64,000 bases of DNA. Source: Raillietiella orientalis. Taxonomy: Eukaryota. The notes below the pieces were generated by a model, which saw only the letters and a program-made list of their open reading frames with translations, was not told the DNA's origin and did no database searches. Positions 16,928 through 57,445 of this stretch are shown here, piece by piece. Position 1 is the first letter of the stretch. Each line of letters begins with the position of its first letter. The position numbers and the translations under genes were made by a program. The stretch is taken from assembly GCA_036172245.1 (NCBI GenBank), contig JAYWIR010000001.1, positions 9,424,001 to 9,488,000 on the forward strand, read 5' to 3'.

Positions 16928-16949
16928 CTGTTTCACTGCTCTCCTTCCA

Positions 16950-17520
16950 GCTTTTTTCTTTTGTTTCGTTTTTTTTTTCGTTTGCCACGCAGTCAAAGAA
17001 CCGTTGGCCTTGCAGCTCACGAAGCTCTTCAGCACCGCCCACGCCACCCGAGGTTGCTTCTTAGCTCTTCAAGTGAGAAGTTGACCCCGGAGGGGGCACC
17101 CCATGAATCCAAAAAGCCTCTTAAGACAATAGTCCATCTCTATCACTCTTGGAAGGCACCTCTCCTTTTGGTTTTCTCCGAAGGAATCTCTCATCCATCT
17201 CAAGTACGTTCTTTTCTTTTCCGTAGGGACCCCTCGGAAAGGATCCCCTCCTGGAATTTCTTAAACGGAGGTCACCCGCAAGGGAACCGCTCCTTGATTG
17301 CCAGCCAGTCAGCGAGGGCATCCGCTTTCTGGCTGCTCCCACCGGTAGCGCACCCGAAAGGTCCAGCCAACGTCATCTTGCAGGCGAAACTCGAAACTGA
17401 CGACGCACCCCCCGCTCTCGGCGTCAATGTTTACCCGAGCGGGATTCGAACTCGCGACTCTTGCTAGTGCCACGAGCGGTGGACGCAGCCTCTCGGACGC
17501 GAACGAGGGCCACGCGGTGC
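16950..17520 (-). mobile_element. tRNA-head SINE copy (inside left arm)
   Basis: B-box-like GAGTTCGAATCCC on the minus strand (~17441-17453), A-rich tail at ~16951-16980, body similar to copies at 20030-20855 and 44350-45000. Confidence 0.65.
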
Positions 17521-17590
17521 AAATTTCAGAGGAAGCACTTTATTGCGAGAGGTTTTCCGGGAGGCTGCAAAACTTCTCCCACAGAGGTTC

Positions 17591-19385
17591 TCAGGTAGAG
17601 AAAGTCAGGGTCTTCTCTTTGTCGTTCGAGAGGTCAACTTTCACTTTGACCTGCCTCATCAGGTCAACTCCAAAGCCCCAGTTCGACTGTATCTCCTTTC
17701 TGAGTCCATGGGTGAAGAGCAGATAGCACCTGTCGCTTCCCGGGAAAGCCTGGAATGCCTCGGACGTAGGTCCTCCCTGCGCGTCGATTCGGGAACCGCT
17801 TCAAGAAGTGAAGAGAAGGAGGAAGTTCCCTCGGTCAGCCCTCAAAGAACGGAAGTTGCGGTCAGAGGGAAAGAGAGAGAGAGGCAACCGCTCCAGCGAG
17901 TACGAAATGTACCTGGAACGTGTAGCTGTAGACGTCGAAAAAGGCCTCCACGCCGCCGCCAACTTTGTACGTCACCTTCTTGTGTTTTTTCGGATCCCGG
18001 GATTGGCAGGACATCTGAGGGAAGCGGGCGTTAGTCTCCACGATCGTGAGAGAGGGTCGCCTACCGCGTAGACGCGGTTGAGTGGTGGCACGGGTTTCGC
18101 GGGGATGTGCTGCAGCAGCCAATCCAGGAACCTCTTGGGAACTTCCAGGAACGGCAGTCCGGCGTCGATGAAGGCTGCCTTTTGTTCACCCATCTCGAAT
18201 TCCGCGTCCCCGTAAGAAATTCTGAAAATGCAATCGCAAGGACCTCGAGGGACGTCCACCGCCTCTTTCAGCTTTCATCTGGAAGCGGAAGCGCTCCGTT
18301 TCGCAGTTCGACGAACTTCTTGCGTTAGACGAGATGCGCGCAAGGAAGAAAAAGAAATCCGCTGAGTTTCTCGCATACGGCGACTCGGGGATTCGGCAAC
18401 TGGCAGGGCACCGCGATGTTCCCCAACATGACGCTCGCATCAGGTCGGGTGGATGGCGACTGTTTCTTACCCTCCCAATTCGAACTCGAGGAGGTGCGGG
18501 TGACTCTTGCCCTCTCTGCTCAGCATCGGCTTCACCACGGTTTTCTCGCGTAACTTCAACGTGATCCTGTCGTTGGAGTCGCCGAACGTGATCTTCTCCT
18601 CGCCTCTGATTCGAAGAGAATGCTGCAGGTCTTCGGTTCCTGCCTCCCATCCCTTACCTTCTGAGGTCGAATACGAACTGGCTGCGGGCGTTCGCGCTTT
18701 CGAAGCGGTACGCGTCCATTCCCAGTAGTCCGTCACCTGCCAAGTACTCGTGGAGGTACGAAGAGTTGGTTTCCAACGTAAACAGCTCCACCTTCTCGTC
18801 CACCGTGAAGGAAACGGATTTGTCCAAGTTCTTCACCTGTGGAAGAATGCGCTCTCCAACTCGCGTCCCTCCTTCCCGTCCTCTTTACGCTGTAAGTGTC
18901 TTCGCCTTCCCTTATGCTGACCGACTTTCCAAAGTATACGGCGTTGCTCTGCTTCCCGTTGGAGTGCCAGGACGAAGAGTCCTCGGGCTTGAACTTCTGG
19001 TGGTCCTCTGCAGGGTCGCGCTTAGCCGACGACGAGCGCCGACCCTGCAGTCCACTTACTGCACCATTTGCTCTTGCATCGTTGATCAGGGATCCACAAA
19101 GAAGACACTGTGGTGTCCAGGATGACCTGGAAGTGCTGGCCCGGGGTCCCGACGCTGGCGAAGCAATAGAACTGGCCCTGGGGGAGCAGAGAGTAGCCAA
19201 AGAGCGCCCCCGGGATGGTGGGCATCTTACGCGTTGCCGGTCGTATCCTAGGCGAAGGACGTGCTGCGAGCTGGAAGTCTTGACCCGGGCGATCCTGAAG
19301 GAGAAACGAACCTGCAGCCGAGAGCTGAAACTCAAGGGAGGTCTTACCCGGAGAAGACCAGGAAGAATAGAAGCGCTCCGAACAT
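17591..19385 (-). CDS. Secreted pepsin-family (A1) aspartic protease homologue, divergent; open copy (9 exons, ~356 aa)
   Basis: Mirror image of 28171-29966 but with 6 A in exon 8, so the frame stays open. Spliced protein: signal peptide MFGALLFFLVFSG, QFYCFASVGTPGQHFQVILDTTVSSLWIPDQRCKSKWCKDHQKFKPEDSSSW, DGLLGM, KITFG, AAFIDAGLPFLEVP, YAMSC, RCYLLF..NWGFGVDLMRQVKVKVDLSND..LTFST. All 8 introns GT-AG and in phase. Confidence 0.88.
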
Positions 19386-19445
19386 CTTGAGGAGATCCCA
19401 GCGCGTTGGCTCTACAGCAGTAGTTGCTTCGGGTGTGGCTCGTTC

Positions 19446-19452
19446 TTTTATA
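19446..19452 (-). promoter_or_regulatory. TATA box of the left aspartic protease copy
   Basis: TATAAAA on the minus strand ~60 nt upstream of the ATG at 19385. Confidence 0.7.
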
Positions 19453-20029
19453 TAACGGCGGCACCAGAAGCGGCGCTTGGGGAAGGTTCGCCTTTGAAGG
19501 GTTCAATGCGGTCACACGGCAAGGTCGGCAGGCGTGTTCGCTGCACCTGTGCTGCTGCTGCTACCGCTCGCTTTGAGGTATCACGACGTTCGCTCCGTTC
19601 CGGGGTGCTCCCCTCCGAGGCGCGCGCGCGAGTCTGGAAGAATCTCACCGGCCTCCCGCGCCTGTGCAACGTTGCATCCGACCGGGAAACGACCGTCCGC
19701 TTCCTCGTCGCAGAGCTCTTTACCAAAGTCGCCGCTGCGCGCGGACGGCTGCCGCCCGGGTGCCCCGAAAATGCCTGCCTCCCGATGCTTCGACAGATGC
19801 CTGTCGGCGCTGCCCCTGAAGTGTCGCGTTCCACGCTCGCGCGCTCTCCGTGTCCAGGACCCAAGGTAGCAAAGTGGGGAACAGGTGCCATTTCCCTCCA
19901 CTCGGAATGCAGATGGCGTGTGTGGCCACGGGCAGGACGATTCCCAAGAGAAAAGTTTTGCCCTGTATCAGCCGAAGGACCCGTCTGGATGCTGGAGGTT
20001 GCGTCTTTGCGAGGCAGCCTTCGTGCCAC

Positions 20030-20855
20030 GCGCTGGCGGCCGTGCGGCTGCGGCCTCCGCGCCGCGTTGCCCCACCTAGCGTCGCGGCTTGGAATCTCGG
20101 CCGTGAAGGGGGATCTACCCTCCTGACAAATGGACGCGTCGTGAGTTTCGAGTTTTCCTTCGTAAGATGACGCAGTAAGCAGCGTCATCTTGGGGAGCTT
20201 CCTTGTAGAGATGCATCCTTCAACCTCCAGACGGTTCCCCCGCCTGAAACGGGACAAAATTTCCGTCTTGGGAATTCTTGCGCATACTCGAGTGTGGCAC
20301 TTCTGGAAGCCGTAAGCCCACGTTGAGTAACCGGGATTGGATGTCGACCCTCCGGGGTCCTTCCAGCAATCAAGGAGTCTTTCAGGGTTCCCTTCCGTTG
20401 GTGAGGATAGAGCTGGTTTATATCCACCTCGGGGAATTGCCCCACCACAGCGCAAGAAGTGCGCTGCTTCCTTCCGGCAGGGAATTCTACAGAAATCTGG
20501 AAGAGTCCCTCGAGCTTTCTCCTCAATGGAAGATAGGAGGAGCGGTTGCATTGTGGATTCTTCCCGGGTAAGAAACGAGGTGTCCACGTCTTCGGGGAAG
20601 CATCTCCCGAGACGACCAGGATGAGTGTTTTCTTCGGGGTTCTCTCCCAGTAGAAAGAGAGGAGTGGACTCCTTCCTCCGGTACCTTTCCTGGATTCATT
20701 GGGTTGTCCCCACGAGATTGCCCTTAAACTGGAAGGGTTACGCACACTCCCTCAAGGAATGTGAGCGGCGCGGATGAGCTTCGTAGGTCCACCGTAGCAT
20801 GGCGGGAGGTTCTTCAGTCCTCATTGAAAACCAAAAAGAAAAAAAAAAGAAAACA
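20030..20855 (+). mobile_element. tRNA-head SINE copy spanning the inner end of the left arm
   Basis: Decayed B box (GTCGCGGCTTGGAATCTC ~20081-20098), body sharing GACCCTCCGGGGTCCTTCCAGCA with the reverse complement of ~44785-44808, A-rich tail ~20827-20855. Confidence 0.65.
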
Positions 20856-22466: not shown

Positions 22467-25400
22467 ATGCAGGAAAACATCGTCAACCTGCGCTCCGTGA
22501 TTGAGAACGCGACGAGTGAAGACCAAAAAAAACAGGCAATCCAGCAGTCCAAGGACCTGCTGCAACGCCTGCGACAGGAGGTCACTACACACGAAGTGGC
22601 AATGCACCTCGAAGAACAGGTCTACGTCATCCTCACCCCCTTAGTCCCGCCAGACGAGGACCGGAAACAGGGGGAAGGAAAGGAGACGCCGGCGGAAACG
22701 CCAAACAAGACGAAGCGATGGAAGGGCAGGAAGTGGAGGGGAGCGCTACCAGCTGTCTCCTCGGGAGAGGATACTCCCGCCGAGGAGGAAGCCGCCATTT
22801 ATGAAATGCTCAACCAAACCCTGCGGTACAGGCGCTCCCAAACCAGGGCGCAAATGGCCCCCCAAAAGCGCAAGATTAAGTAAATTAGCCTAGCCGTTCC
22901 CTTTATGACGCAACACCTGACATCTTTGAATAAAGTCGGGCTCGCATCTTGGAACATTAATGGATGCACGAACCCGACGAGAAGGAAACACATGAAGTGG
23001 CTCCTGCGACAGGAAGCCATCTGCTGCCTGCAGGAAACTCACTTCATGACGCCCGAAGCATGCCAAGATCTTGAGGGAACTCCAATTCGACGTCCACATC
23101 AACCAGGGCTCGACTAACCGAAAAGGCGTGGTCATCCTCGTCAAGCAGACCCTCGCGCCTACCGTCTTGGAAGTTTTCCACGGATGGGAAGGCCGCGTCT
23201 CGGGCCTGAGGATGGCGTGGTCCGGAAGCGTTCACCTGTCCGTAATGAACGTGTACGGACCAATGTTTAACAAGAAAGCCTTTGCGACAGCGCTCGCAGA
23301 GTTAATCAAGAACAAGATCACCTCGAAAGACGTCATGATTGAATGCAGGCGACTTCAATGTCCGTCTGGACGGCTGTCGGCACGACGAGTCGGGTGCGTA
23401 CGGCGTCTACCGATGCATGATGGAGGAACTCTCCCTCCTTTGCACGGGAGCGAACGCGAAGCGCATCGACTACGTCCTGCACTCGGCAACTCTGGCGAAT
23501 AGGATGCAGGGGATCCGGGAACTCAACACCGGAATCTCGGACCATGCTCTGCTGAAATGGAGACTAGCATCCAGGAATCCCAGGAAAGAAAACGCTCCAC
23601 CCTGGGCGGCACTCATCTGCATGCCCGAGTGATACGAGCGTTTTCCACCGTACCAGCGCGTCGTGGAAACCATTCTAGCCACGACCAACATCTTGCGCGT
23701 GGACGACTGGGATATCCTGAAACACACCATGAACCTGTTCTCAAATATGCAGTACGGCGACCGGAACCTCTGCGAGGAAGCGTGCAGGGAAATGTACCAA
23801 CTGATCCCTCCCACTCTGAGTACTGGGAACAGTACCAGAGCCTCTTCCTCGAAAAAAGTGTCAAAAAGGATATCGCACGGCTGGAGAAGCGCAACCTGGC
23901 AACGGACATATTTCATGTCCGTTACCAGGATAAGGACTATAGAAATTCAGAGCAAGTGCTGCAAGCATTCCAACACCACAACTCCGAACTAATCAAGAAA
24001 GAGATTTTGGACCCGGGAGGTCAGGAACGGATTCTCCGTTGCGTGAAGAAACGCCTGGCCTCCCAAGAACTCGACGACCTGGAAAAGCAATTCACTGTCG
24101 AGGAGATCAAAGCGGCGTTCGACGAATTGCACAAGGATGTGGCTGCGGGCCCTGATAGCGTTCCCATCACGCACTATCAGAGGCACCTAACCCACTACCC
24201 GCGCCTACTCCGTCAGCTGCAGGAATGCATCGACCTGGAACAACGACTGCCCGTCTCCTTTCACCGAAGCAGGACGAGGCTGCTCCCCAAGAGCGGCGGG
24301 GACCTCTGCAACGTCACCCAATGGAGGCCCATATCCGTCCTGAATTCGGACGTGAAATGGATGGCGAAAATCTGAGCAAACAGGCTGCGCCAATGTATGA
24401 AGTCGGTGGTTTCCCCACACAAGCGTGTGCCGTACCAGGCATGTGGGATAGCCTGAAGTGCGCCCAAACCCTCCTGGGATACAGTTGTATCCTGGGCAAG
24501 GACTTGTGCTGAGCTTCACTGACATCGAGAAGACCTTCGACTCGGTAGACCTTCACGCCATGCTGCTGAAAGTCCTCGGAAAGGTAGACTTCCAGGGAAG
24601 ATTCGTGCAGCACGTGGCACATACCTTGGAAGAAGCCAATTTCTCGATCATCGTAAATGGGCTATCGTCGAGCAACATCAAGATGGAAAGAGGAGTCCGA
24701 CAGGGAGATGCCCTGAGCCCGATGCTCTTCGTACTATATATAGAGTCTATGAGTGCCTTTGTTAAACACGAGAGTCAGCTAAAGGGTATCGACCTGGGCG
24801 AAGAAGAACCCAAGATCACTCACCTGGCCTATGCTGACGACCTCCTGTTCGTCATGACTGATGAGCGGGACCAGGAGGCATTCCTGGACGTCGTGCGGGC
24901 CATGAAGTGCGGCCTCGGACTTGGAGTCAACCCCAACAAGTCCCATCTGCTCGCCGTGGGAATCCTGGACGTTACCATCCTCCACGCTCCACGCCCATGC
25001 TTCCAGATTGAGGACAACATCAAATACCTGGGGGTACGCATCGGCGATGAAACACCTGCCCTGTCGCAGCAATGGTCGACCATCTTGACCAAGCTGCGCG
25101 AAGAAGCCAGCCAATACACCAGAAGATCCTTCTCGCAGAAGGACAAGGCAAACCTCTGGAACGGGGTGATGGCGCCGAAGTTCCTCTTCACAGAGTCTTT
25201 TCTATCGTTTTCCCCGACGACGGCAAAGGACCTGGCCGCCATCCAGAGGAACCTTGTCTGGAGCGGGAAACGACCGAAGACAAAGTTGCAGTACCTGTGC
25301 CGCCCGCGGATGGAAGGAGGAATCAGCATGCGCAATGTCGCCACTGCCGTGAAACTCCAGGACCTCAAACACTTGGTCCGAATGGTCAGCGCATGGGACG

Positions 25401-26492
25401 AGTGGCCGTTTGCGTTTCACCGTGCCTTTGCAAGACTGGTGCACGGAACCGACGGCCTTTGTCTGCCCTGGTGCTCACCGCGGGCGGCTGGGACCAAGTT
25501 GACCCTACGTGGCCCCGAATCCAGCGTCTAGTATGGACCTTAAAACTGCGAGTGGTACCCAGAAGTAAGGAGATATGGAACAAGGAACTGACCAAGGTGA
25601 TCCCGCTGTTCATCAGCGTCCCTTGGGACACCGAAGCATGGATCACGAAGAACCGAAAGATCACTGTGGAAGCTACCGAGAGACTGGCGGACAGCGTGGT
25701 TATGCACGCCCGCCGAGTCCTAGTATACAAGCGCCAGCTCGAGGGGAGGATAATCCACAAGATCCGGGAGCTTTGGCAGGATCAAGGCTCCCAATGGTCC
25801 AGGGTGAACCTCCTGAGTAACAATCCTCTTAGTTCCCAAGATACAACACCGTCCAGGGCGATGCAGAAGATCAAGTCCAGGTCAGGATCAAGGCAATCCC
25901 GCAGTGGATGCACAGGCAATCGGACGGTCCTATGGAGATCCTCGTTGCCGCCGGACATTCAGAACTGCCTCCTGATGTTTTATCACGGAGGCATACTGTG
26001 TGGCACGAGGTTTCAACACTGGACCGGAAATCCCGACGACTACCAGTGCCCAGGGTGTGGGTCAGTCGAAGATGACCTACACATCTACACCTGTCGCAAT
26101 CGCACCCTCTTCAGGAATTGGAAAACCATAAAGAGGGCGGAGCGATGGAAGAAATGTCGACGCTCGAGATCCTGAGAGGACTCTTCGAAGGCGAAGACGG
26201 AGTACCCCGCTACAATCCCACCTTGAGAGTGATCGTGGCCTCCTTCATGAGAAGTATTCTCATACGAAGGATAACCTTATCCCATGGTGAAGTGTGCAGT
26301 GCCCTGGATGTTCTATATGGAATCCTGAAAAGGGAAAGCAATATCCGAGCATATGGGAGAGTCCCGTCGTGGGTTTTCCTATATTGCCTTAGGATTGTGC
26401 AGTGTGGAGCCAGGACGGTGTAGTGATGTACCCGCTTGGACCGCAACCCTAATTGTGTTTTGTTTTGTTTTGTATGATTGTAGTTAAATAAA
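22467..26492 (+). mobile_element. L1/Tx1-like non-LTR retrotransposon, 5'-truncated and pseudogenised (ORF1 tail plus APE-RT ORF2)
   Basis: ORF1-like tail 22467-22883. ORF2 from 22905: ASWNING, CLQETH, MNVYGP, AGDFN, RIDYV, SDH (APE endonuclease); AAGPD, LLPKSG..WRPISVLNSDVK, DIEKTFDSV, GVRQGDALSPMLF, AYADD, KYLGV (RT); CPGC..EDDLHIYTC; stop at 26422; AATAAA 26487-26492. Several frameshifts and in-frame stops. Confidence 0.92.
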
Positions 26493-26900: not shown

Positions 26901-28103
26901 ACTCTGGATCTGCCTTCGTCGCACAGGGCTTTTCTGAGGAGGTCCTCTGTCGTTCTGTGAATTGCTGTTGGAACGGGGCAAACAAAAAGCAAGGGGCAAA
27001 GGAGAAGGGCTGCCAGTGAGTTCCACACCGCGGCCCGTTCCGACAAGTAGAGCATGCCGTCCCCAAACAGGCAGAACACCATCTCTACTTTTAGGAGACT
27101 GTCGGACCAGACTTCTGCTACTCAGAAGTCCCCCAACGAAACTCCAAAGCACTTGATGTAACCACCGTTGAGGATAAGCTCCTTGATTGCTGGAAGGACC
27201 CCGGAGGGTCGACATCCAATCCCGGTTACTCAACGTGGGCTTACGGCTTCCAGAAGTGCCACACTCGAGTATGCGCAAGAATTCCCAAGACGGAAATTTT
27301 GTCCCGTTTCAGGCGGGGGAACCGTCTGGAGGTTGAAGGATGCATCTCTACAAGGAAGCTCCCCAAGATGACGCTGCTTACTGCGTCATCTTACGAAGGA
27401 AAACTCGAAACTCACGACGCGTCCATTTGTCAGGAGGGTAGATCCCCCTTCACGGCCGAGATTCCAAGCCGCGACGCTAGGTGGGGCAACGCGGCGCGGA
27501 GGCCGCAGCCGCACGGCCGCCAGCGCGTGGCACGAAGGCTGCCTCGCAAAGACGCAACCTCCAGCATCCAGACGGGTCCTTCGGCTGATACAGGGCAAAA
27601 CTTTTCTCTTGGGAATCGTCCTGCCCGTGGCCACACACGCCATCTGCATTCCGAGTGGAGGGAAATGGCACCTGTTCCCCACTTTGCTACCTTGGGTCCT
27701 GGACACGGAGAGCGCGCGAGCGTGGAACGCGACACTTCAGGGGCAGCGCCGACAGGCATCTGTCGAAGCATCGGGAGGCAGGCATTTTCGGGGCACCCGG
27801 GCGGCAGCCGTCCGCGCGCAGCGGCGACTTTGGTAAAGAGCTCTGCGACGAGGAAGCGGACGGTCGTTTCCCGGTCGGATGCAACGTTGCACAGGCGCGG
27901 GAGGCCGGTGAGATTCTTCCAGACTCGCGCGCGCGCCTCGGAGGGGAGCACCCCGGAACGGAGCGAACGTCGTGATACCTCAAAGCGAGCGGTAGCAGCA
28001 GCAGCACAGGTGCAGCGAACACGCCTGCCGACCTTGCCGTGTGACCGCATTGAACCCTTCAAAGGCGAACCTTCCCCAAGCGCCGCTTCTGGTGCCGCCG
28101 TTA

Positions 28104-28110
28104 TATAAAA
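28104..28110 (+). promoter_or_regulatory. TATA box of the right aspartic protease copy
   Basis: TATAAAA ~60 nt upstream of the ATG at 28171; matching AATAAA at 30013-30018, downstream of the stop at 29966. Confidence 0.7.
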
Positions 28111-28170
28111 GAACGAGCCACACCCGAAGCAACTACTGCTGTAGAGCCAACGCGCTGGGATCTCCTCAAG

Positions 28171-29966
28171 ATGTTCGGAGCGCTTCTATTCTTCCTGGTC
28201 TTCTCCGGGTAAGACCTCCCTTGAGTTTCAGCTCTCGGCTGCAGGTTCGTTTCTCCTTCAGGATCGCCCGGGTCAAGACTTCCAGCTCGCAGCACGTCCT
28301 TCGCCTAGGATACGACCGGCAACGCGTAAGATGCCCACCATCCCGGGGGCGCTCTTTGGCTACTCTCTGCTCCCCCAGGGCCAGTTCTATTGCTTCGCCA
28401 GCGTCGGGACCCCGGGCCAGCACTTCCAGGTCATCCTGGACACCACAGTGTCTTCTTTGTGGATCCCTGATCAACGATGCAAGAGCAAATGGTGCAGTAA
28501 GTGGACTGCAGGGTCGGCGCTCGTCGTCGGCTAAGCGCGACCCTGCAGAGGACCACCAGAAGTTCAAGCCCGAGGACTCTTCGTCCTGGCACTCCAACGG
28601 GAAGCAGAGCAACGCCGTATACTTTGGAAAGTCGGTCAGCATAAGGGAAGGCGAAGACACTTACAGCGTAAAGAGGACGGGAAGGAGGGACGCGAGTTGG
28701 AGAGCGCATTCTTCCACAGGTGAAGAACTTGGACAAATCCGTTTCCTTCACGGTGGACGAGAAGGTGGAGCTGTTTACGTTGGAAACCAACTCTTCGTAC
28801 CTCCACGAGTACTTGGCAGGTGACGGACTACTGGGAATGGACGCGTACCGCTTCGAAAGCGCGAACGCCCGCAGCCAGTTCGTATTCGACCTCAGAAGGT
28901 AAGGGATGGGAGGCAGGAACCGAAGACCTGCAGCATTCTCTTCGAATCAGAGGCGAGGAGAAGATCACGTTCGGCGACTCCAACGACAGGATCACGTTGA
29001 AGTTACGCGAGAAAACCGTGGTGAAGCCGATGCTGAGCAGAGAGGGCAAGAGTCACCCGCACCTCCTCGAGTTCGAATTGGGAGGGTAAGAAACAGTCGC
29101 CATCCACCCGACCTGATGCGAGCGTCATGTTGGGGAACATCGCGGTGCCCTGCCAGTTGCCGAATCCCCGAGTCGCCGTATGCGAGAAACTCAGCGGATT
29201 TCTTTTTCTTCCTTGCGCGCATCTCGTCTAACGCAAGAAGTTCGTCGAACTGCGAAACGGAGCGCTTCCGCTTCCAGATGAAAGCTGAAAGAGGCGGTGG
29301 ACGTCCCTCGAGGTCCTTGCGATTGCATTTTCAGAATTTCTTACGGGGACGCGGAATTCGAGATGGGTGAACAAAAGGCAGCCTTCATCGACGCCGGACT
29401 GCCGTTCCTGGAAGTTCCCAAGAAGTTCCTGGATTGGCTGCTGCAGCACATCCCCGCGAAACCCGTGCCACCACTCAACCGCGTCTACGCGGTAGGCGAC
29501 CCTCTCTCACGATCGTGGAGACTAACGCCTGCTTCCCTCAGATGTCCTGCCAATCCCGGGATCCGAAAAAAACACAAGAAGGTGACGTACAAAGTTGGCG
29601 GCGGCGTGGAGGCCTTTTTCGACGTCTACAGCTACACGTTCCAGGTACATTTCGTACTCGCTGGAGCGGTTGCCTCTCTCTCTCTTTCCCTCTGACCGCA
29701 ACTTCCGTTCTTTGAGGGCTGACCGAGGGAACTTCCTCCTTCTCTTCACTTCTTGAAGCGGTTCCCGAATCGACGCGCAGGGAGGACCTACGTCCGAGGC
29801 ATTCCAGGCTTTCCCGGGAAGCGACAGGTGCTATCTGCTCTTCACCCATGGACTCAGAAAGGAGATACAGTCGAACTGGGGCTTTGGAGTTGACCTGATG
29901 AGGCAGGTCAAAGTGAAAGTTGACCTCTCGAACGACAAAGAGAAGACCCTGACTTTCTCTACCTGA
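28171..29966 (+). pseudogene. Second copy of the pepsin-family aspartic protease homologue with a +1 frameshift in exon 8 (pseudogene or homopolymer error)
   Basis: Exons 28171-28208, 28262-28325, 28379-28496, 28549-28667, 28720-28898, 28951-29085, 29335-29491, 29542-29644, 29808-29966. Exon 8 is 103 nt (A7 at 29566-29572) against 102 nt (A6) in the left copy. One R/K difference (EVPKKF vs EVPKRF). Confidence 0.82.
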
Positions 29967-30035
29967 GAACCTCTGTGGGAGAAGTTTTGCAGCCTCCCGG
30001 AAAACCTCTCGCAATAAAGTGCTTCCTCTGAAATT

Positions 30036-30606
30036 TGCACCGCGTGGCCCTCGTTCGCGTCCGAGAGGCTGCGTCCACCGCTCGTGGCACTAGCAAGAGT
30101 CGCGAGTTCGAATCCCGCTCGGGTAAACATTGACGCCGAGAGCGGGGGTGCGTCGTCAGTTTCGAGTTTCGCCTGCAAGATGACGTTGGCTGGACCTTTC
30201 GGGTGCGCTACCGGTGGGAGCAGCCAGAAAGCGGATGCCCTCGCTGACTGGCTGGCAATCAAGGAGCGGTTCCCTTGCGGGTGACCTCCGTTTAAGAAAT
30301 TCCAGGAGGGGATCCTTTCCGAGGGGTCCCTACGGAAAAGAAAAGAACGTACTTGAGATGGATGAGAGATTCCTTCGGAGAAAACCAAAAGGAGAGGTGC
30401 CTTCCAAGAGTGATAGAGATGGACTACTGTCTTAAGAGGCTTTTTGGATTCATGGGGTGCCCCCTCCGGGGTCAACTTCTCACTTGAAGAGCTAAGAAGC
30501 AACCTCGGGTGGCGTGGGCGGTGCTGAAGAGCTTCGTGAGCTGCAAGGCCAACGGTTCTTTGACTGCGTGGCAAACGAAAAAAAAAACGAAACAAAAGAA
30601 AAAAGC
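30036..30606 (+). mobile_element. tRNA-head SINE copy (inside right arm)
   Basis: GAGTTCGAATCCC at ~30104-30116 and A-rich tail ~30578-30604; mirror of 16950-17520. Confidence 0.65.
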
Positions 30607-31199
30607 TGGAAGGAGAGCAGAGAAACAGAAGCCCTCATCTCCGACATCGACGCTCTTCGTGCAAGGTATCCTGCAAAGAGCTGTTTCTTGAATTTGTCTA
30701 AAAATTTACGCACTACTTAACGACACCACCAAAGGCTGGTGACCGACAAAGTTAGGTGACTCGATGTGCTGTGGTATCTGCACAATGGACCACACGTTGT
30801 TGTTATCCAGTCTGGCAAAGATGTGAGCTGCCTTGATCAACGAATCGAATATGGCCATGGCTCCAAGCAAGCGAGACAAGAAAGCGTGGTTGTTGCCTTT
30901 GATAAGCAATGTGGTCATCTGTTTGACCAAAAGAGCAGCTGACCAGAATAATCTGAAAATCCTCAGGCGAATCGTGCAAGAACTCGCCACGAATGCAGAT
31001 CGCAAATCCGAGTTATCAATTCGAACAGAACATTCTGTAAAAGGAATTTCTTGGCGTGGAGGCTGTCTCTCTTCGTGTTCTTATGAAAGAATTTGGAGTT
31101 CTTTCCCTGTTTACAATATTCGAGAAAGGGTTCTACAGATAGAAAAAGGCTGCAACCTATTTATGTAAAATTTTCCAAGTTCATCTGAATTTCCTTTGA

Positions 31200-42559: not shown

Positions 42560-42998
42560 CCGTAAAATCTCGTGTATAACACGCACGACTCTTCCTCAAT
42601 TTAGCTCGCCAGAATCGGAGTGCGTATTGTACACGGGTGCAAAAATACCCTCATTTCCCATGTGCACGAGGTGCTGTACACGTGATTGGGACCATCTGTT
42701 CTGCGCGCAAGAGCGTCGCTCGCGACCGATTCAGATTTTTTCTATTTTACCTTCTACAACGTTGAAAATTTGATAGAATGAGATTACACGCGTTGCAAAT
42801 GGATGCGCCATTGGAGAATACACTAAAAAAGAAAAAAACGCATTTTTTGTTAAGAGTAAAGATTTTTGCTTTTACAGATTTTCTAATGATATTTAAGTTT
42901 TTATTTGTATTATTCATTAGAAGTCTTGTTAGTGTTTTATGCAATTTAAAATGAAATTTTGAAAATCATGGGTGCATATTATACGCGAGATTTTACGG
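42560..42998. mobile_element. MITE with 27-bp terminal inverted repeats (pogo/Tc2-like CCGTA ends)
   Basis: CCGTAAAATCTCGTGTATAACACGCAC (42560-42586) against the reverse complement of 42972-42998, CCGTAAAATCTCGCGTATAATATGCAC (3 mismatches). Non-coding AT-rich interior; TG on both flanks. Confidence 0.85.
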
Positions 42999-43299
42999 TG
43001 AGAGGAATAGGGATAGGCCTGCTAGACCTCTAATCACGGAGAACGGTCGAAATGGAAGCGTGTGCAAGTTTCTGTGGGTTCTTAATGGATTGGTGCAGCT
43101 GCTATCACTGTGGAGTCGTAGATGTTTCATTCTGGAGAAAGCTCTGCTGGTCGAGTGGGAAAGAAAGCGGCTGAGTGGTGAGTCTGAGAGGAACTTCCCT
43201 TCTGACAATGAGGCGATGTGACTGCCGATGAGTGACCCTGTGGAAAGAGGTTGATGATAACCACAGCGGATCAAAGTGCCTCCAGGATAGGATGTGGCC

Positions 43300-44345
43300 T
43301 AGAAATGAGGTGCGCCCGTGAACCGCAGACAAAGTGGGGTTTGCGCGACCCGCTGGGCACAAATGATGGCAGTTGAAAGAGTTGAAAGGATGGTCAACAG
43401 CATGTCCGAAGCAGAATGCCACTCTGATGGTCAGACTCGCATTGGAAAGCATAAACGTGGTCTGAAGAGAGGCGAGCCATTCGGTCAGTGTTCTACCGCG
43501 GCTGCTGCTGGTTTGCGAAGCACAAGAGGAACGATGTAACGTCAACTGAGTGGCCATCCAAAAGGAGTGATAGAACGGCAAAGGCCACCAGGACACTACT
43601 GACCTGACTCTGGTAAAACTTGCTTTGCGGAACATCACAAAGGTGGTCGAGAAGGGAGCATTCTGTTCGTTCTGTGCTTGGGAGTGGAATCCAATCCAAC
43701 CCATTCGACCAGAGAGTTCCTCACGGCACGTACACGGTCTGCTGTGTTTGGAAGAACCGGTACAACATACAACCGGCCATAGCACCTCAGTACACTCCCA
43801 CCTTGCTGTTACGCTTCAGCCTCGTTGTGAGGGAATTGTGCGAAGGTCCGCAATACGGAATAGCGGAAAGCCTTTCAGGGACTTGATGCTGGAATGAGAA
43901 AGTCCGCAGCACGACTGCAGAAACAGCAGCTGAAGTACGAAAGGATTGGAAAGCTGGAAAGGCTTTAATTAAGAAGAATTATAATATGTATTGATGATTG
44001 TTTCATAAAAATTGTGGGGTATAGTGGTGTCATATTTAGTATGTTGTGATTTTGGTTGAATGTAAAATTGGTGGGAATAATAGTGGAAATAGGAAAGGGT
44101 GAATAAGGAAGGTTTTGATGTTGATTAGATGATTTTTAAATTTGTTGTTAGAATAGGTAAAATTAGTTTAATAGAATATTTTGTTTAGTAAAGAGCATTT
44201 AAAATTTATATGGTTCTTATGAGTTGGTTGAGTTTGATTTTTATTTTGAGTAGTTGGGTTTTCTTAGTAGGAAGTGATTGGGAAGCTGAAATGTTTTTAG
44301 GAGCAGCCGGTCACTGTGACGCTATTCTGGACTCGCTGCGAAAGA
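43300..44345 (+). mobile_element. Probable N-terminal (zinc-finger/pre-RT) remnant of a NeSL/Utopia-like element, containing the C-depleted tract
   Basis: Decayed Cys/His segments (FCSFC; HGLLCL..TSVHSHL); KSI*NLY at ~44190-44212; GHCDAILDSLRKIF at ~44309-44350. Confidence 0.4.
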
Positions 44346-44349
44346 TATT

Positions 44350-45000
44350 CATCTCTCTCTCTTTTTTTTTGATCCTTCAAGTGCTGAAGAGCCGCTCGCC
44401 TCCTTACAGAGGGCTCACGAGGCTCTTTGACGGTGTCCACGCCACCCGAGGGTGCGTATAACTAACTCTTCATGCTATGAGAGCAAGCTCGTAGGGACCC
44501 TATGAATCCAGGAAGGCTCCGAAAAAGGAGTCCGTTCCTCTTGAGCTTGGAAGGGAACCACCTCTCTCCGGAGGGAATCCCCCCCCCCAAGGGATCTTCT
44601 ACTCGTTTCTTCTCAGAAAGGGACCCGCAAGGGAACCAACAGCTCCTGGATTCCTCTTCTGAAGAGAACCCCTAAGGGAGCAGCGCGCTTCTTAACACTC
44701 TGGAGAGACAACCTCCCCAGCTATAGCCATAGACCGGCTCACTTTTCACGAAGGGAGGGGAACAACCCCGAAGGGTTCCTTGGTGTGCTGGAAGGACCCC
44801 GGAGGGTCACCTTCCAATCGCGGCCAGTCATCCCGGAACCAGGGACAACCAGCGTGACCCTGTGAGGAAGGAAGAGGGGACTCGAAACCAGCGACGCACC
44901 CCCGTTCTCGGCGTCGACCCTTCCCTGGGCGGTATTCGAGCCCGTGACGCTTGGTAGCACCTGCAGAGACCGCAGCCACACAGCCGCTGATGTGGGCTTC
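44350..45000 (-). mobile_element. tRNA-head SINE copy
   Basis: B-box-like GGGCTCGAATACC on the minus strand (~44931-44943), body shared with other copies (CACGCCACCCGAGG, ATGAATCCA, ACCCGCAAGGGAACC, ACTCGAAAC..CGACGCACCCC), T-run tail at ~44352-44370. Confidence 0.7.
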
Positions 45001-47872
45001 TTCAGGCTCGCTGCTGCATGCTCGCCGGTAGCTTGCCGACAGGCCTGGTTCAAAATTCCGAACTCCATAATCCCGAATGTTGGAATCCCGAAAACAGCAT
45101 CCATCATCATTGGGGTGCTGGAGCTGATGCGGAAATGAAACGCAGGGCATAGCAAATTGTAAAAAACAATGCTGACCATTTCAAATGATGTGGGAAGGGA
45201 AAGACTAAAAAAAAGCGAAAATTAATAGAAAAGAAAATTCGACACATCCAGGGGAAAGATTGTGGGCAATCTCTAGGAAGGGTGGTCCACCAAGACCTGG
45301 CCGAGCTTTCCAGACGGCTTGTCCTTTGACGAAAATACAGTTCCCTTCCAGGCTTCAAAGCGGTTTGTGCCTGCTTTGCCGAAAAATAGGAATTTGCAAA
45401 GAAAGCCGACCACAGCTGAATTCAATCCAGGCGGGAGGTTTTAGCAAAATATCAAGCTCGGTCTTCCGAAATGAATCCCTCCTGGATAATGGAACCAAGG
45501 ATATGCAAGCATATGACCGACCTCCCCCTTAGAGTTCTCACTACCACCAAACCACGCAGGTCCTCTTCGCCATCTCCCCATTATTCATTATCTGGAGCAC
45601 CTATTTCTACTTTATAAACAGTGACCTAAGATCTTATGATACCTACACGTTAAACCTAGGATTTTCATGAAACCAAGAGTCATCAACGTTACATGGACTC
45701 TTACGTTGAACCACGACCGCTTAATTAGCTAGATTTTCTAGCGATTGCCAATCGAAGTTTCCCTTTAGAATCACAATTAAATTACCACTGACTTTTTAAA
45801 GTTTTTGCATTCTTCATTACACGCATACTAAGAATGTGCTTAAAATTTGTTTTATAAGCCAAAGCATAATGAAACCCAAAATGTAACGCATGTGTATTCC
45901 TGTCATATTAGAAAATGAGTTGGTTCGGGAATTTTTGGAGCATTTCTCTGTCCTTTGATGTAAACGGAATGCTCGCACTGAACTTTCTTGATTTTTATGC
46001 AAACTGCAAAATCTTTCGATATGGCGATCAGGAAAAATATTTTTAAGAACGAAATCCACAACTCTCACCCCCCTCATATCCGCACTTAAGTTCTTAAACT
46101 AAAGTTTCTATGAAAATGAAGGTTTCAATTTTATCGTCTCATCTGTCATGCCCTCCCCATACTGTAGATTATAATTGTTTATTGATAATCTAAACATTTA
46201 GGGTGTTATACCATCCAAAGCATACTTTCTAGGAGCTTCCAGGTCATTATTGCCATTATTATACCACATATTCAGGTATCAGATAAAACGTTCGGTCAAT
46301 TCATAATTAACTACGGATCCAAATCTCAAAGGAAAACGTTTTCTAGCTTTTTTGGAACGAAATCAAAACGAATTTCTTACGAGTAACAGCCTGGAACTTG
46401 AAGGAAAAAAACCGTGGAGCTTTCTAGAAAGCAACGCCTTAGCCTAGGCTGCCGCCGCCATCCTTGCTGATTGACGGAGATTTTTTTTTCCTTAGCGCCA
46501 CCTAAAAATTCGGCCGATATTTCGTTTAAGCTGAAAACACTCATTCTGGAGCTTGCATTTTGCAGTCGCCAGCTTCAGAATCGAGCTAATGATCGCGAAA
46601 GTCGGCCAGGTCTTCTGGACCACCTCCTGACAATTGCCCATAATCTTTCCCTTTGATGCACTTTTTTCTTGTGTCGAATTTTCTTTTTTGTTTTTCTTAA
46701 TCTTTGCTTCCTCCTCTCCCCCCCCATCTCTTCCCTCCCCCCCTTCCGCACCATTTGAAGTGGTCATATGTTTTTGTTTTTATTTTCCCCCTTAATTCTC
46801 TACGCCCTGGGTTTGCTTTTCGCTCCAACACTCAAGAAACGGAACTTCCTCAATCAATGATGAATTACTGCCTGCTCGTGCCCTTCCGGTCTGGAATCGC
46901 GTGGCCAAGAGCCCGCGCTTACGAGGACGACACCGCCGAACAACCCACGCGGCGCTCCTTCCTCCGAGATGCACTTCATCAGGCCGCAGCCTCCATGTTC
47001 CACGTCTGCGGCGGCGTGGGAGCGCAGAATCCCAACAGGGAAGGAGGAAGGACACCGGCCGCACTGTGAGAGGATTAGGATTCAGGAGGAGCGGAGCGTG
47101 GGAGTCTGGTCCACCCCCACTGTTTGCAGACTTTTTCATCTATCCACTGTCCTCTTTCCCTTGTCACTCTCGACCTCTTCCCCGGAATCCCGTCCTTGGG
47201 GTCGCAGTGGGAACCCGGTTCCTGCTCTGTAGGTCGATTTTTCTATGTCCCGGAGTGACTCGTCCCGGATTTCCAGGTCATCTGTTTAGACATGAAAACC
47301 TCGAAACCCTGCAACAAAGGGAAGGGACCGACCAGAGGCCAAAGGGAGCGATTCTTGCTGGGAGAGAAACGAAGAGGGGAGCGTGGAAAACGGGGTGCGC
47401 CGTCCTCACCGTGGTGAACGCGACCCTGAGGGTCTGCGCTGGGCAATGGAGGAAATGGGGAGGAGGTGCGTCCGTCGGTTTCCGACTGGCACGGTGGGCA
47501 GCCTGCGGCTCCCTGAGGCGATGGCCACTCCCTCCCCCCATTTCGGCGACCTCCCCACGGTTGAGGATCGCCGAGGAGGGGGCGGCTGGCGAGCCCAGAG
47601 GGGCGAAGGCTCGTGTTAGCGGGAGGGGCGGCATCGGGGAAGCGAAGTGGCATCCCACCCTCGCCGTCGGGTTCCGGCGGCACGGGGGGAGAGGCCTTCT
47701 GGCGTCCCGGCAGCAGAACGCGGAAGAGACGAGAGATGCGTGGTGAGAGAACGGCGTAAGGGCCGTGGCGCGGTTCCTCAGTCCGGGGGAGGCTGCGCTG
47801 CGGCGCGAGCCGGGCAGCAGCGTGCCGCCGGAGAGCCGTGACGGCGCGGGAGCCCGGAAATGCGGTGTCGGG

Positions 47873-48452
47873 CGAGATCCCGGACGCCCAAGTCCCGAAA
47901 GATCACAAAAAGTACACATACCTGCTGCTTATCCTACATAGATTTATGTGCAAATCTATTTTAATATGCATAATTACTCGTATTTATTGACATATATACG
48001 ATTAACAGTCATGTTATTTGAACGTGTGCATTCATGAACGTACACTTTATTAATATAATTAATACTTTGTTGATATATATATTAAAGATTATTAAAAATA
48101 AATATATGTGCTTATTACATATATTGATATATGTATTTATACATAAATTAATATATATTATGAAGATTATAAACAATTGATAGGTATTTATGCATATATT
48201 CATGTGAACATTAACATGTAGACCGTAAAGATTATAGAAAAATAAATGTGTATTCATGCATATATGTATGGAAAAAGTAATATATGGATTAATGTTAATC
48301 ATGAAGATTATTATAAATAAAGATATATGCCTATTATATATATCAGTGTATATAGAAAATATAAAAATATGATAATATAAAAAGTAATGATATTAAAATA
48401 TAAAATATCTTCACTTTTTATGATATTTGGGATTTCGGTGTTCGAGATTTCG
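47873..48452. mobile_element. MITE with ~40-bp imperfect TIRs and an extremely AT-rich, loosely repetitive interior
   Basis: CGAGATCCCGGACGCCCAAGTCCCGAAAGATCACAAAAAG (47873-47912) against the reverse complement of 48414-48452, CGAAATCTCGAACACCGAAATCCCAAATATCATAAAAAG. Recurrent AAGATTAT..AAATAAA units inside. A fragment of the same family sits at ~22390-22466. Confidence 0.7.
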
Positions 48453-55719: not shown

Positions 55720-57445
55720 ATTGTATTGTATATCTATCTATCTATATCTATCTGAAAAAAAAAAAAAAAATATCCAAAGTCGGTATGGAACCCTGCCTAT
55801 TGTTAATTCCTATGGATGCGTATCCGTGCAATAGTATTCCTCTCGCGTGCAAGAGCACGAGATTGCTATATCGCTACTGTTTGTGAAAATAAAATGCTTA
55901 TATGCGTTCTCCTTTTTTTTTTTTCTTTTTTTTTTTCTTTTGGGGTCCCCTACCCCCTTTTGAAGCACACCCACTCCACGAAGCACGGACGTCTCTCTCG
56001 GTCCAGGATGCTTGCAAAGTGAGCGACGATATTCTGCGAGCACATCTGTCACCGAGGGAATTTAGGGTTTTTATTGTGCTCTCGCATAAAGGTGGTGGCG
56101 AAACGTGACACGGAAACGTTCCACCGTTCGAGGCAAGTGAGCAGGAGAAAAGCGCCTTAAGGAATTCTTATGCTTGTCCTGAAAAAATAATAATAAAAGT
56201 CCAAACTGGTATTCCGTCGTATAAGGATGAACACTGGGTGCAGTGACCTAAACAGTTAATGTGTGTGCGGAGTTTGTGAAATGAATAGGCTTGGCAAAGA
56301 TGCAGTCAGCCGGAAAGCAAACACTTGCACGGTGATCACTGGTGTTCCGGGCAGCAGGGACGTTGTTGTTGTTTGCCTCCCGAATTCGTTTTCCGGAGGG
56401 GGCTGGCGCGCGGTGAGGTGGCGAGGTGTTTCCGGGATCCGTCGCGTGGGCATCCCCCCGGGGGCGGTGTGCACCATTCTGCAGCGGTGCAGCTTCCAGG
56501 AAGTTCTCCATGCTGGTGCTCGCGGGTTGTTGTGCCGTGCCGCGTTCCCTGTGATTCGTGTCCATCCGTGAACATTACCGGACGTTGGCCGGGTCGTAAA
56601 ATGTGCACAGTGTAGGTCGGGATTTCGTTGCAGGGGCGCCCCCCCCCTTCCCCTCCCCCGTCGTGTAAATTGCTTTTTCCTTCTCCATTGTTTCTTCAGG
56701 ATTCCGAGTTCCGTTAGCATCGATTTCAGAGAGTTCGGCTTGGGACTTGCGAAAAGTTTGACCAGTGAAAAGAATTCTGCAGAAAGGGGGCATCCATCTG
56801 AAAGATTAAAAAAAAAAAAAAAAAAAAAAAAAAGAAAAGGAAAAAAAAAAAAAAAAGATGGGCTCGCTGGCCAGGCGGTTTCCCGTTCGGGAACTGAATT
56901 TTGAAACCGTCTTGCAAAAGTAGGATGGAAAAAATTCGCAAACGTCGAGAGATAAAATTCGCACTTCCTGCTACGTGTGGATCGTAAATTGCTTTACAAA
57001 TTCCTGTAGTAACCGTGAGTTTTTGAAAATCTACCCACATGTCGAAAATTTAGAAAACCATTTTCCCACGGGGCAACGTTTGTGCAAAATTTTGTGGCCA
57101 AGTGGCCTCTCCGTCGAGCCCACGTGTGTCCATTTAACCAGCTTTTGCAAAAGAGTTTTCTTGAGGGGACACATTTGAGTAGAAGGAACAAATTGGGCTC
57201 AGGTGTTGACCGTTGTGTGAAGGAATGAGTGAATGAATTATTAATTTTTTGTTTTATTTATTTATTTTGTTTTTTTTTGGAAAAAAAAAAAGCAATTTTT
57301 AGACCTTAAAATTCTGTAAACGTAAGGCTGTGAAGTAAATTGAAATTTGTCTCATTTAAATTATGTGTGTTCCTAGTGTCAGTACTTTTGCCTGCCAAGG
57401 ATTTGAACTTAATTTCTGTGATATAGTTTTTACTAAATATATAGT

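What the first reader, a model, noticed from the sequence alone, without database searches (positions are those of the whole stretch)
43964..44285. Strand-specific cytosine desert inside a retroelement remnant: possible processive C-to-T hypermutation
Seen: 43981-44280 has 5 C against about 76 G on the + strand (hand count). The sequence is not periodic and its edges against normal-composition DNA are sharp. Restoring T to C turns GTA AAG AGC ATT TAA AAT TTA TAT into A-K-S-I-Q-N-L-Y, an IQ.LY motif expected upstream of RT in NeSL/Utopia-like elements. Four of the five surviving Cs follow a T. Established: AID/APOBEC deaminases leave clustered single-strand C-to-T tracts, usually seen as G-to-A on the retroelement sense strand. 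Inference: here the presumed sense strand lost C, which points to deamination of the RNA, the second strand or exposed ssDNA by an uncharacterised activity. I am not aware of such a system being well described in arthropods.
Basis: partly seen in the sequence, partly recalled or inferred. Interest (0 to 1): 0.75.

Follow-up and report, generated by a model that had tools for sequence, protein, structure and literature searches.

The report
Cytosine-free 300-base insert between direct repeats
A complex 300-base stretch that almost entirely lacks cytosine on one strand sits between two copies of a 33-base repeat, which looks like an inserted piece of DNA that lost its cytosines while single-stranded, though this could not be proven because no unconverted parent copy or raw reads were available.

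Summary
Window 43964-44285 (322 nt) has A101 C5 G81 T135, and 43981-44280 has exactly 5 C and 76 G. It is the only place in the 64 kb where any base falls to 8 or fewer per 200 nt. The tract is non-periodic and as complex as its own shuffles.

New here: the tract is bracketed by a significant imperfect 33-nt direct repeat, 43934-43966 and 44266-44297, with 26 of 33 matching (0 of 3000 composition-matched shuffles reach its score). It therefore looks like a roughly 300-nt insertion.

The tract is not inside a recognisable retroelement. It lies 62 nt outside the A-tailed end of an old repeat. The only reverse transcriptase (RT) homology found is 19 kb away.

G content and purine share match the flanks, so complete C-to-T conversion of ordinary DNA would give this composition. 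No parent copy was found in the window or the public collections, in three-letter or two-letter alphabets. No genome or reads were available. C-to-T substitution is therefore inferred, not shown.

Best guess (0.4): an inserted single-stranded DNA or cDNA was exhaustively deaminated. Rivals: an intrinsically three-letter insert, or an assembly artefact. Taxon unknown.

The parts
43934..43966 (+). Left copy of the flanking direct repeat (DR1). It keeps 3 Cs (43938, 43954, 43963).
   Evidence: Local alignment of the two edge windows gives 26 of 33 matches and score 18. 3 of 2959 random positions at the same spacing reach it. 0 of 3000 dinucleotide-preserving shuffles of the two edges reach it; their maximum is 15.
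43967..44265 (+). C-depleted insert proper (299 nt): A 0.314, C 0.017, G 0.241, T 0.428. On the minus strand this reads as a G-free A/C/T sequence.
   Evidence: No periodicity. k-mer complexity equals that of shuffles. No ORF in codes 1, 4, 5, 9 or 14, apart from the trivial opening of the G-free minus strand under code 14, whose only stop is TAG.
44266..44297 (+). Right copy of the direct repeat (DR2). Its first 20 nt fall in the C-free run and its C at 44286 is kept.
   Evidence: The 17-nt core occurs with 3 or fewer mismatches only at these two places on the + strand of the window.
43964..44285 (+).
44348..44997 (-). Context, not part of the tract. This is an old repeat copy (61-71% identical to copies at 16956-17510, 30600-30047, 20850-20036 and 27180-27520). 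Its shared end is a T-run on the + strand (T9 at 44362-44370), which is an A-rich 3' tail on the minus strand. It looks like a retroposon.
   Evidence: Homology starts at the same point in all three pairwise comparisons, and the sequence upstream of it is not shared.

Best explanation
About 300 nt (43967-44265) is an insertion flanked by a duplicated 33-nt stretch of the target (43934-43966 and 44266-44297). The inserted DNA was single-stranded for a time, either as first-strand cDNA or as another single-stranded repair or replication intermediate. During that time nearly all of its cytosines were deaminated to uracil. Copying of the uracils fixed them as T on the + strand, which is the same as G-to-A on the minus strand. 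That is the classical polarity of deaminase-edited reverse transcripts if the minus strand is the sense strand.

Shown: the base counts, the sharp edges, the flanking repeat, and a composition compatible with conversion. Inferred: that the T excess comes from C, that the intermediate was single-stranded, and that an enzyme rather than chemistry did it. If the parent had flank-like composition, about 76 of the roughly 140 pyrimidine positions were C and about 93% of them were converted. The 5 remaining Cs could equally be later T-to-C changes.
For: There are 5 C against 81 G in 322 complex, non-periodic nt, unique in the window. G fraction 0.25 equals the window median, and A/G/Y fractions lie inside the range of C=T-collapsed window segments. 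The purine share of the insert (0.555) equals that of the left flank (0.549), and C+T is 0.445 against 0.451. So C appears to have been exchanged for T rather than the stretch being generally AT-rich. Both edges are sharp and coincide with a significant direct repeat (0 of 3000 shuffles; 3 of 2959 random positions), as expected for a discrete inserted molecule. Monotonous one-strand C-to-T or G-to-A substitution is the accepted hallmark of single-stranded-DNA deaminase editing (passages read in PMC4021520 and PMC4866542). Classical AID/APOBEC-like genes exist in several invertebrate phyla, including some arthropods (passages read in PMC5889660).
Against: No unconverted or differently converted relative was found, so not one C-to-T substitution is demonstrated. 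The three-letter BLAST against both strands of the window gave a best score of 44.6 bits, against a shuffle mean of 41.2 and maximum of 54.5. The purine/pyrimidine two-letter search found nothing above chance. Degenerate motifs gave 0 hits in 5 collection scans.

In the collapsed alphabet the tract looks nearly random. Neighbour-dependence chi-square is 2.92 (df 4), and only 6-8% of real collapsed window segments are as low. Markov z is 0.8-1.5 against a mean of 3.1-3.5 for real segments.

Conversion of about 93-100% of Cs in every context exceeds what known deaminases usually leave, and no context preference can be read. There is no poly-A tail, no TE or RT homology in the insert, and no 3-base periodicity. 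The repeat copies differ at 7 of 33 positions, and only one of those differences is C/T. A screen of 19 invertebrate genomes found retroelement DNA editing only at noise level (PMC4866542). No reads could be examined.
Confidence: 0.4

Rival explanations
1. The insert never had cytosines. It would be a real insertion made as a three-letter sequence, for example by template-independent or error-prone filler synthesis at a repaired break that also duplicated 33 nt of the target. Alternatively it is a copy of an unknown, strongly strand-skewed element or foreign DNA.
For: In the A/G/Y alphabet the tract is statistically close to an independent random sequence. Chi-square is 2.92 with df 4, in the lowest 6-8% of real collapsed segments. 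Markov z is 0.8-1.5 against 3.1-3.5. There is no codon periodicity, no ORF, and no match to any RNA family, protein family or public collection. A local duplication next to inserted filler is typical of break repair by template switching (my recollection, not from a call).
Against: I know of no process that makes 300 nt of complex DNA from three nucleotides in a eukaryotic nucleus. Known filler insertions are far shorter (recollection). G and purine fractions equal those of the flanks, which a polymerase bias would not be expected to reproduce. 6-8% of genuine converted-type segments are equally random-looking, so the statistical argument is weak. No second copy of a skewed element exists in the 64 kb.
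Confidence: 0.2
2. Sequencing or assembly artefact. A chemically or enzymatically converted fragment (of bisulfite or EM-seq type), or another chimeric or erroneous read segment, was built into the contig. In that case the tract does not exist in the organism's chromosomes.
For: Near-total conversion of every C regardless of context, with none retained at CpG, is what laboratory conversion does and what enzymes in vivo rarely do. The length (about 300 nt) is that of a short-read library fragment. No raw reads could be checked, and no second assembly or relative was available.
Against: The window is 64 kb without N and resolves a 3.45-kb inverted repeat of 99.8% identity, which suggests long-read data in which a single converted fragment should be outvoted. 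That is inference. The tract is not a converted piece of the usual spike-ins or cloning hosts: blastn 'distant' against phages, plasmids and E. coli gave no match. An artefact does not explain the significant 33-nt flanking repeat. 5 unconverted non-CpG Cs out of about 80 is high for a good conversion.
Confidence: 0.2
3. Fungal-type repeat-induced point mutation (RIP), or a nuclear copy of strongly skewed mitochondrial DNA.
For: RIP is processive and can hit one strand of a duplex in one round (recollection). TpA/ApT in the tract is 36/39 = 0.92. Some mitochondrial genomes are T- and G-rich (recollection).
Against: No duplicate partner exists in the window in three-letter or two-letter alphabets. 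The surviving Cs are CpA (3) and CpT (2), the contexts RIP hits first, while no CpG or CpC survives. The nearest RT relatives in the window are animal-type non-LTR elements, not fungal ones. There is no open frame in mitochondrial codes 4, 5 or 9 on either strand, nor in code 14 on the + strand; the G-free minus strand is trivially open under code 14, whose only stop is TAG. 1.6% C with 25% G is beyond any mitochondrial skew I know of. The organism's mtDNA was not available for direct comparison.
Confidence: 0.05

Closest known systems
AID/APOBEC-type strand-coordinated hypermutation of single-stranded DNA. Examples are G-to-A hyperedited retroviral, HBV or LTR-retrotransposon copies fixed in genomes, and kataegis.
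   Same: Only one base type is lost on one strand. The tract is a few hundred nt long and discrete. It sits in an insertion-like unit. Base composition is otherwise preserved.
   Different: No parent copy is available, so no substitutions can be tabulated. Nothing indicates a dinucleotide context preference, since essentially all Cs are gone. The implied conversion of about 93-100% is far above the 22.7 sites per element reported for edited LTR elements (PMC4866542, passages). The insert has no retroelement homology. The host taxon and its deaminase genes are unknown.
Target-primed or break-captured insertions with target-site duplications (non-LTR retroposition; templated insertions in break repair).
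   Same: A discrete insert is bracketed by a significant direct repeat of flanking sequence. It lies next to another A-tailed retroposon-like repeat.
   Different: The repeat is long (33 nt) and only 79% identical. The insert has no poly-A tail, and no source element was identified.
Laboratory cytosine conversion (bisulfite or enzymatic), and native single-strand footprints of R-loops.
   Same: Context-independent, near-complete C-to-T on one strand with sharp borders.
   Different: This is an assembled genome window, and the tract is flanked by a direct repeat. There is no match to the usual spike-in genomes. 5 non-CpG Cs remain.
Repeat-induced point mutation (RIP) of fungi.
   Same: C-to-T transitions in tracts, possibly processive on one strand.
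   Different: No duplicated partner is present. No CpA-biased survivor pattern is seen. Only one strand is affected. Nothing indicates a fungal genome.

Membership tests
Deaminase-edited (APOBEC/AID-type) DNA | Monotonous C-to-T (or G-to-A) differences relative to a parent or consensus copy | tested here: inconclusive
   No parent was found in the window (three-letter BLAST best 44.6 bits against a shuffle mean of 41.2 and maximum of 54.5; two-letter search) or in public collections. The genome was not held.
Deaminase-edited (APOBEC/AID-type) DNA | Clear dinucleotide context preference of the edited Cs | not testable with these tools
   This needs the parent sequence. The survivors (4 TpC, 1 GpC; 3 CpA, 2 CpT) are too few and match the tract's composition.
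Deaminase-edited (APOBEC/AID-type) DNA | The target is a reverse-transcribed element, with G-to-A on its sense strand | tested here: not met
   The tract has no RT or TE homology. It lies outside the neighbouring repeat. The sense strand is unknown.
Deaminase-edited (APOBEC/AID-type) DNA | The host encodes a nucleic-acid cytosine deaminase | not testable with these tools
   No genome or proteome was held and the taxon is unknown. Literature only: some invertebrates, including some arthropods, have such genes (PMC5889660).
Insertion with target-site duplication | Direct repeat of flanking sequence at both ends, beyond chance | tested here: met
   26 of 33 match. 0 of 3000 composition-matched shuffles reach the score, and 3 of 2959 random positions do.
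Insertion with target-site duplication | Empty site (one repeat copy, no insert) in an allele or related genome | not testable with these tools
   No reads, no relatives and no genome.
Poly-A retroposon or processed retrocopy | A-rich 3' tail abutting the downstream repeat copy | tested here: not met
   Neither end of the insert, on either strand, carries an A-run.
RIP | Duplicated partner, and CpA-biased mutation with CpG and CpC spared | tested here: not met
   No partner in the window. The survivors are CpA and CpT, not CpG or CpC.
Nuclear mitochondrial insert | Match to mtDNA, or an open frame in a mitochondrial code | tested here: inconclusive
   No non-trivial open frame in codes 4, 5, 9 or 14; every + strand frame has 3-10 stops and the minus strand has 4-7 under codes 4, 5 and 9. 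The minus strand under code 14 has no stops only because it lacks G. The mtDNA itself was not available.
Converted spike-in or vector contamination | About 75-80% identity to lambda, phiX, plasmid or E. coli DNA | tested here: not met
   blastn 'distant' gave no match in phages, plasmids or E. coli genomes.

The most novel reading that the evidence does not exclude
The germline of a non-vertebrate eukaryote holds a fossil of saturating, context-independent cytosine deamination. In this reading an uncharacterised DNA deaminase converts essentially every C on a roughly 300-nt single-stranded insertion intermediate before it is sealed into the chromosome. Bolder still, the insert could have been written de novo with only three nucleotides. 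Either would be an unreported way for new sequence to enter a genome.
Probability: 0.15. Interest if true: 0.8.

Novelty: new variant of a known kind. Interest (0 to 1): 0.5.

Why it matters
Edited retroelement copies fixed in genomes are documented for vertebrates. A screen of 19 invertebrate genomes found editing only at noise level (PMC4866542, passages read). A germline-fixed tract in which about 93-100% of the cytosines of one strand are gone would be the most extreme natural editing footprint I know of. If the host is an invertebrate, it would point to an active DNA deaminase outside vertebrates. It would also show that such events create entirely new, AT-shifted sequence at insertion sites. 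If it is an artefact, it is a useful warning for assembly quality control. With only one tract, no reads and no parent, it remains a lead rather than a result.

Tried and rejected
**Data that were not available**
- Own genome: not held.
- Earlier notes of this scan by place, sequence and relatives: nothing. One unrelated bacterial note turned up by words.
- Public sequencing runs for 43500-44750: none was listed, and no RNA holder was listed. Read laying therefore could not be used.

**Searches for a parent copy**
- Three-letter (C=T) BLAST of the tract against both strands of the window: best non-self hit 44.6 bits, no better than 60 shuffles (mean 41.2, maximum 54.5).
- A collinear-looking three-letter hit upstream of repeat copy A scored 42 against 29.8 +/- 4.2, and 4 of 300 shuffles reached it. 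I rejected it because the repeat family ends at the T-run in all 3 copies, so that upstream DNA is not homologous.
- Tandem-duplication idea (tract as a converted copy of the adjacent 332 nt): no three-letter similarity.
- Long-stagger target-duplication idea (a sibling copy at the other end of the neighbouring repeat): no purine/pyrimidine match in the window. The best 120-mer (88 of 120) is a purine-run coincidence.
- Degenerate 31-nt motifs with T written as Y: 0 hits in metagenome contigs (2 scans), viral contigs (2) and prokaryote genomes (1).
- blastn 'distant' against phages, plasmids and E. coli: no match.

**Searches for function or context**
- Rfam: none at gathering threshold for the window. 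At E up to 10, only a chance CRISPR-repeat hit with E = 9.
- Pfam: 0 of 11 ORFs near the tract.
- The 236-aa ORF at 43108-43815 (minus strand): no homologue.
- Restoration-tolerant protein profile against 78 RT proteins: best frame reached by 2 of 40 shuffles, not significant over 6 frames.
- Three-base periodicity of G, A and T: none, p = 0.62-0.98.
- Mitochondrial-code ORFs: none beyond the trivial opening of the G-free minus strand under code 14.

**Taxon**
- The RT's nearest relatives are only about 33% identical (fish, aphid and spider elements), and the Atlas gave only 'Eukaryota'. 'Arthropod' stays unverified.

**Other**
- Supplementary files of the papers were not consulted. Supplementary note S4 of PMC4866542 on invertebrates may bear on the comparison.

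Full report
**Observation**

43981-44280 holds 5 C, 76 G, 91 A and 128 T. The stated span 43964-44285 holds 5 C, 81 G, 101 A and 135 T.

The five Cs are at 44004, 44031, 44196, 44216 and 44263. Four follow T and one follows G. Three are CpA, two are CpT and none is CpG.

The tract stands alone in the window:
- No other stretch lets any base fall to 8 or fewer per 200 nt.
- The longest C-free run is 164 nt. The next longest C-free runs (81, 64 and 64 nt) include poly-A or AT-rich simple sequence at the two places I read.
- GC skew reaches +0.89.
- At the window's C frequency, the binomial chance of 5 or fewer C in 322 nt is 2e-33.

The tract is not periodic. TRF finds only a 22-nt, period-6 array with score 30. 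Its k-mer diversity equals that of its own shuffles. The edges are sharp: C is 0.245 in the left flank, 0.296 in the right flank and 0.017 inside.

**Anatomy: the tract lies between direct repeats**

The two edges carry an imperfect direct repeat, 43934-43966 and 44266-44297. 26 of 33 positions match, with one gap.
- Random positions at the same spacing reach this score in 3 of 2959 trials.
- Dinucleotide-preserving shuffles of the two edge windows never reach it: 0 of 3000, maximum 15 against the observed 18.
- The 17-nt core occurs with 3 or fewer mismatches only at these two sites on the + strand.

The unit is therefore repeat, then a 299-nt C-poor core (43967-44265), then repeat. That is the shape of a discrete insertion with a duplicated target, or of an element with terminal direct repeats. 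The two repeat copies differ at 7 positions, and only one of those is a C/T difference.

**Context: the tract is not inside a recognisable retroelement**

To the right, 44348-44997 belongs to an old repeat family, 61-71% identical to copies at 16956-17510, 30600-30047, 20850-20036 and 27180-27520.

In all three pairwise comparisons, and in a three-way alignment, the homology starts at the same T-run (T9 at 44362-44370), and the DNA upstream of it is unrelated. On the minus strand this is an A-rich 3' tail, so the family looks like a retroposon. The C-poor tract lies 62 nt beyond that end, outside the element.

Other context checks were negative:
- The only RT homology found in the window is at 23866-25114. 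It showed up as a Pfam RVT_1 match (E = 4e-19) and as tblastn hits of 78 RT proteins nowhere else.
- None of 11 ORFs within about 1 kb of the tract has a Pfam match.
- The 236-aa ORF on the left has no homologue.

The 'IQ.LY' motif has no evidential weight. Every stop codon on the + strand begins with T and can be 'restored'. A profile that allowed all T-to-C (or A-to-G on the other strand) restorations found nothing in 78 RT proteins beyond shuffles. The best frame was reached by 2 of 40 shuffles, across six frames tested.

**Is it converted DNA?**

For:
- G is 0.25, exactly the window median.
- The A/G/pyrimidine fractions fall within the range of window segments after collapsing C into T.
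- The purine share is 0.555 in the insert against 0.549 in the left flank, and C+T is 0.445 against 0.451.

So C has been replaced by T, rather than the stretch being AT-rich in general. If the parent resembled the flank, about 76 Cs existed and about 93% are gone. This is my inference.

Against, or undecided: no relative of the tract was found anywhere.
- The three-letter BLAST against both strands of the window is no better than shuffles: 44.6 bits against a mean of 41.2 and a maximum of 54.5 for 60 shuffles.
- A suggestive hit upstream of one repeat copy, reached by 4 of 300 shuffles, falls in DNA that is not homologous between copies.
- A purine/pyrimidine search that tolerates all transitions found only a purine-run coincidence.
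- Degenerate motifs found nothing in metagenome, viral or prokaryote collections.
- Phage, plasmid and E. coli collections gave no match. This also excludes a converted lambda, phiX, vector or E. coli spike-in.

In the collapsed alphabet the tract is close to an independent random sequence. Neighbour chi-square is 2.92 (df 4), and only 6-8% of real collapsed segments are as low. Markov z against its own shuffles is 0.8-1.5, compared with a mean of 3.1-3.5 for real segments. This mildly disfavours 'converted local-type DNA' and leaves room for a foreign source or a non-templated origin.

There is no codon periodicity, no non-trivial open frame in the standard or mitochondrial codes, and no RNA family match.

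**Mechanism**

The only well-established route to a complex sequence missing one base on one strand is cytosine deamination of single-stranded nucleic acid followed by copying.

My best explanation (0.4) has three parts:
- A discrete single-stranded DNA entered this site. It was either first-strand cDNA or a strand exposed during break repair or template switching, which would also account for the 33-nt duplication.
- It was deaminated to saturation.
- The uracils were then fixed as T.

Read on the minus strand this is G-to-A, the classical polarity.

The criteria for calling such editing are monotonous substitution plus a dinucleotide preference (PMC4021520, passages read). Neither can be tested without a parent. 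The implied extent far exceeds the 22.7 sites per element reported for edited LTR elements, and the same study found editing in 19 invertebrate genomes only at noise level (PMC4866542, passages read). Deaminase genes do exist in some invertebrates, including some arthropods (PMC5889660, passages read). Germline clusters attributed to APOBEC are reported for hominids (PMC4864454, seen in the listing and abstract only).

**Rivals**

- An intrinsically three-letter insert, either filler synthesis or an unknown skewed element (0.2).
- An assembly or sequencing artefact of the converted-fragment kind (0.2). This explains context-independent completeness, but it explains neither the flanking repeat nor the apparent long-read contiguity. 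It could not be tested because no runs were listed.
- RIP or a mitochondrial insert (0.05). The evidence against these is the absence of a partner copy, the identity of the surviving contexts, and the lack of mitochondrial-code frames.

The taxon is unknown. The RT's nearest relatives are about 33% identical animal non-LTR elements.

**Verdict**

The C-to-T interpretation is plausible but unproven. The retroelement, motif and polarity arguments are not supported. Interest is moderate (0.5). It would be high if reads confirm the tract and a parent copy shows C-to-T changes.

Noticed in passing
window 16928-20381 and 27176-30628: A 3.45-kb inverted repeat, 99.8% identical over 3455 nt. It brackets a 6.8-kb centre that holds the window's only RT homology.
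   Followed up: partly
window 23503-25531 (+): A degenerate non-LTR-type reverse transcriptase, split over at least two frames. Pfam RVT_1 gives E = 4e-19 on 24452-25531, and tblastn hits span 23866-25114. Its nearest relatives are only about 33% identical (fish, aphid and spider elements). No endonuclease domain was recognised in 10 neighbouring ORFs.
   Followed up: partly
window 44348-44997, 16956-17510, 30600-30047, 20850-20036, 27180-27520: An old repeat family (61-71% identity). Its shared end is a T-run on one strand, that is an A-rich 3' tail, which makes it retroposon-like. One copy ends 62 nt from the C-poor tract.
   Followed up: partly
window 56808-56858 and 57212-57292: A long, almost pure poly-A run of about 50 nt, and an AT-rich simple stretch. 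These are the other long C-free runs of the window, and both are low-complexity.
   Followed up: no
window 47400-47900 and 48009-48392: A 70-72% GC block with long open frames on both strands and no Pfam match in the ORFs tested. It is followed directly by an AT-rich low-complexity block.
   Followed up: no
window 42800-43400: A broader zone of positive GC skew (+0.26 to +0.37) to the left of the tract. It includes an AT-rich, C-poor patch at about 42840-42960. It is not comparable in degree to the tract.
   Followed up: no
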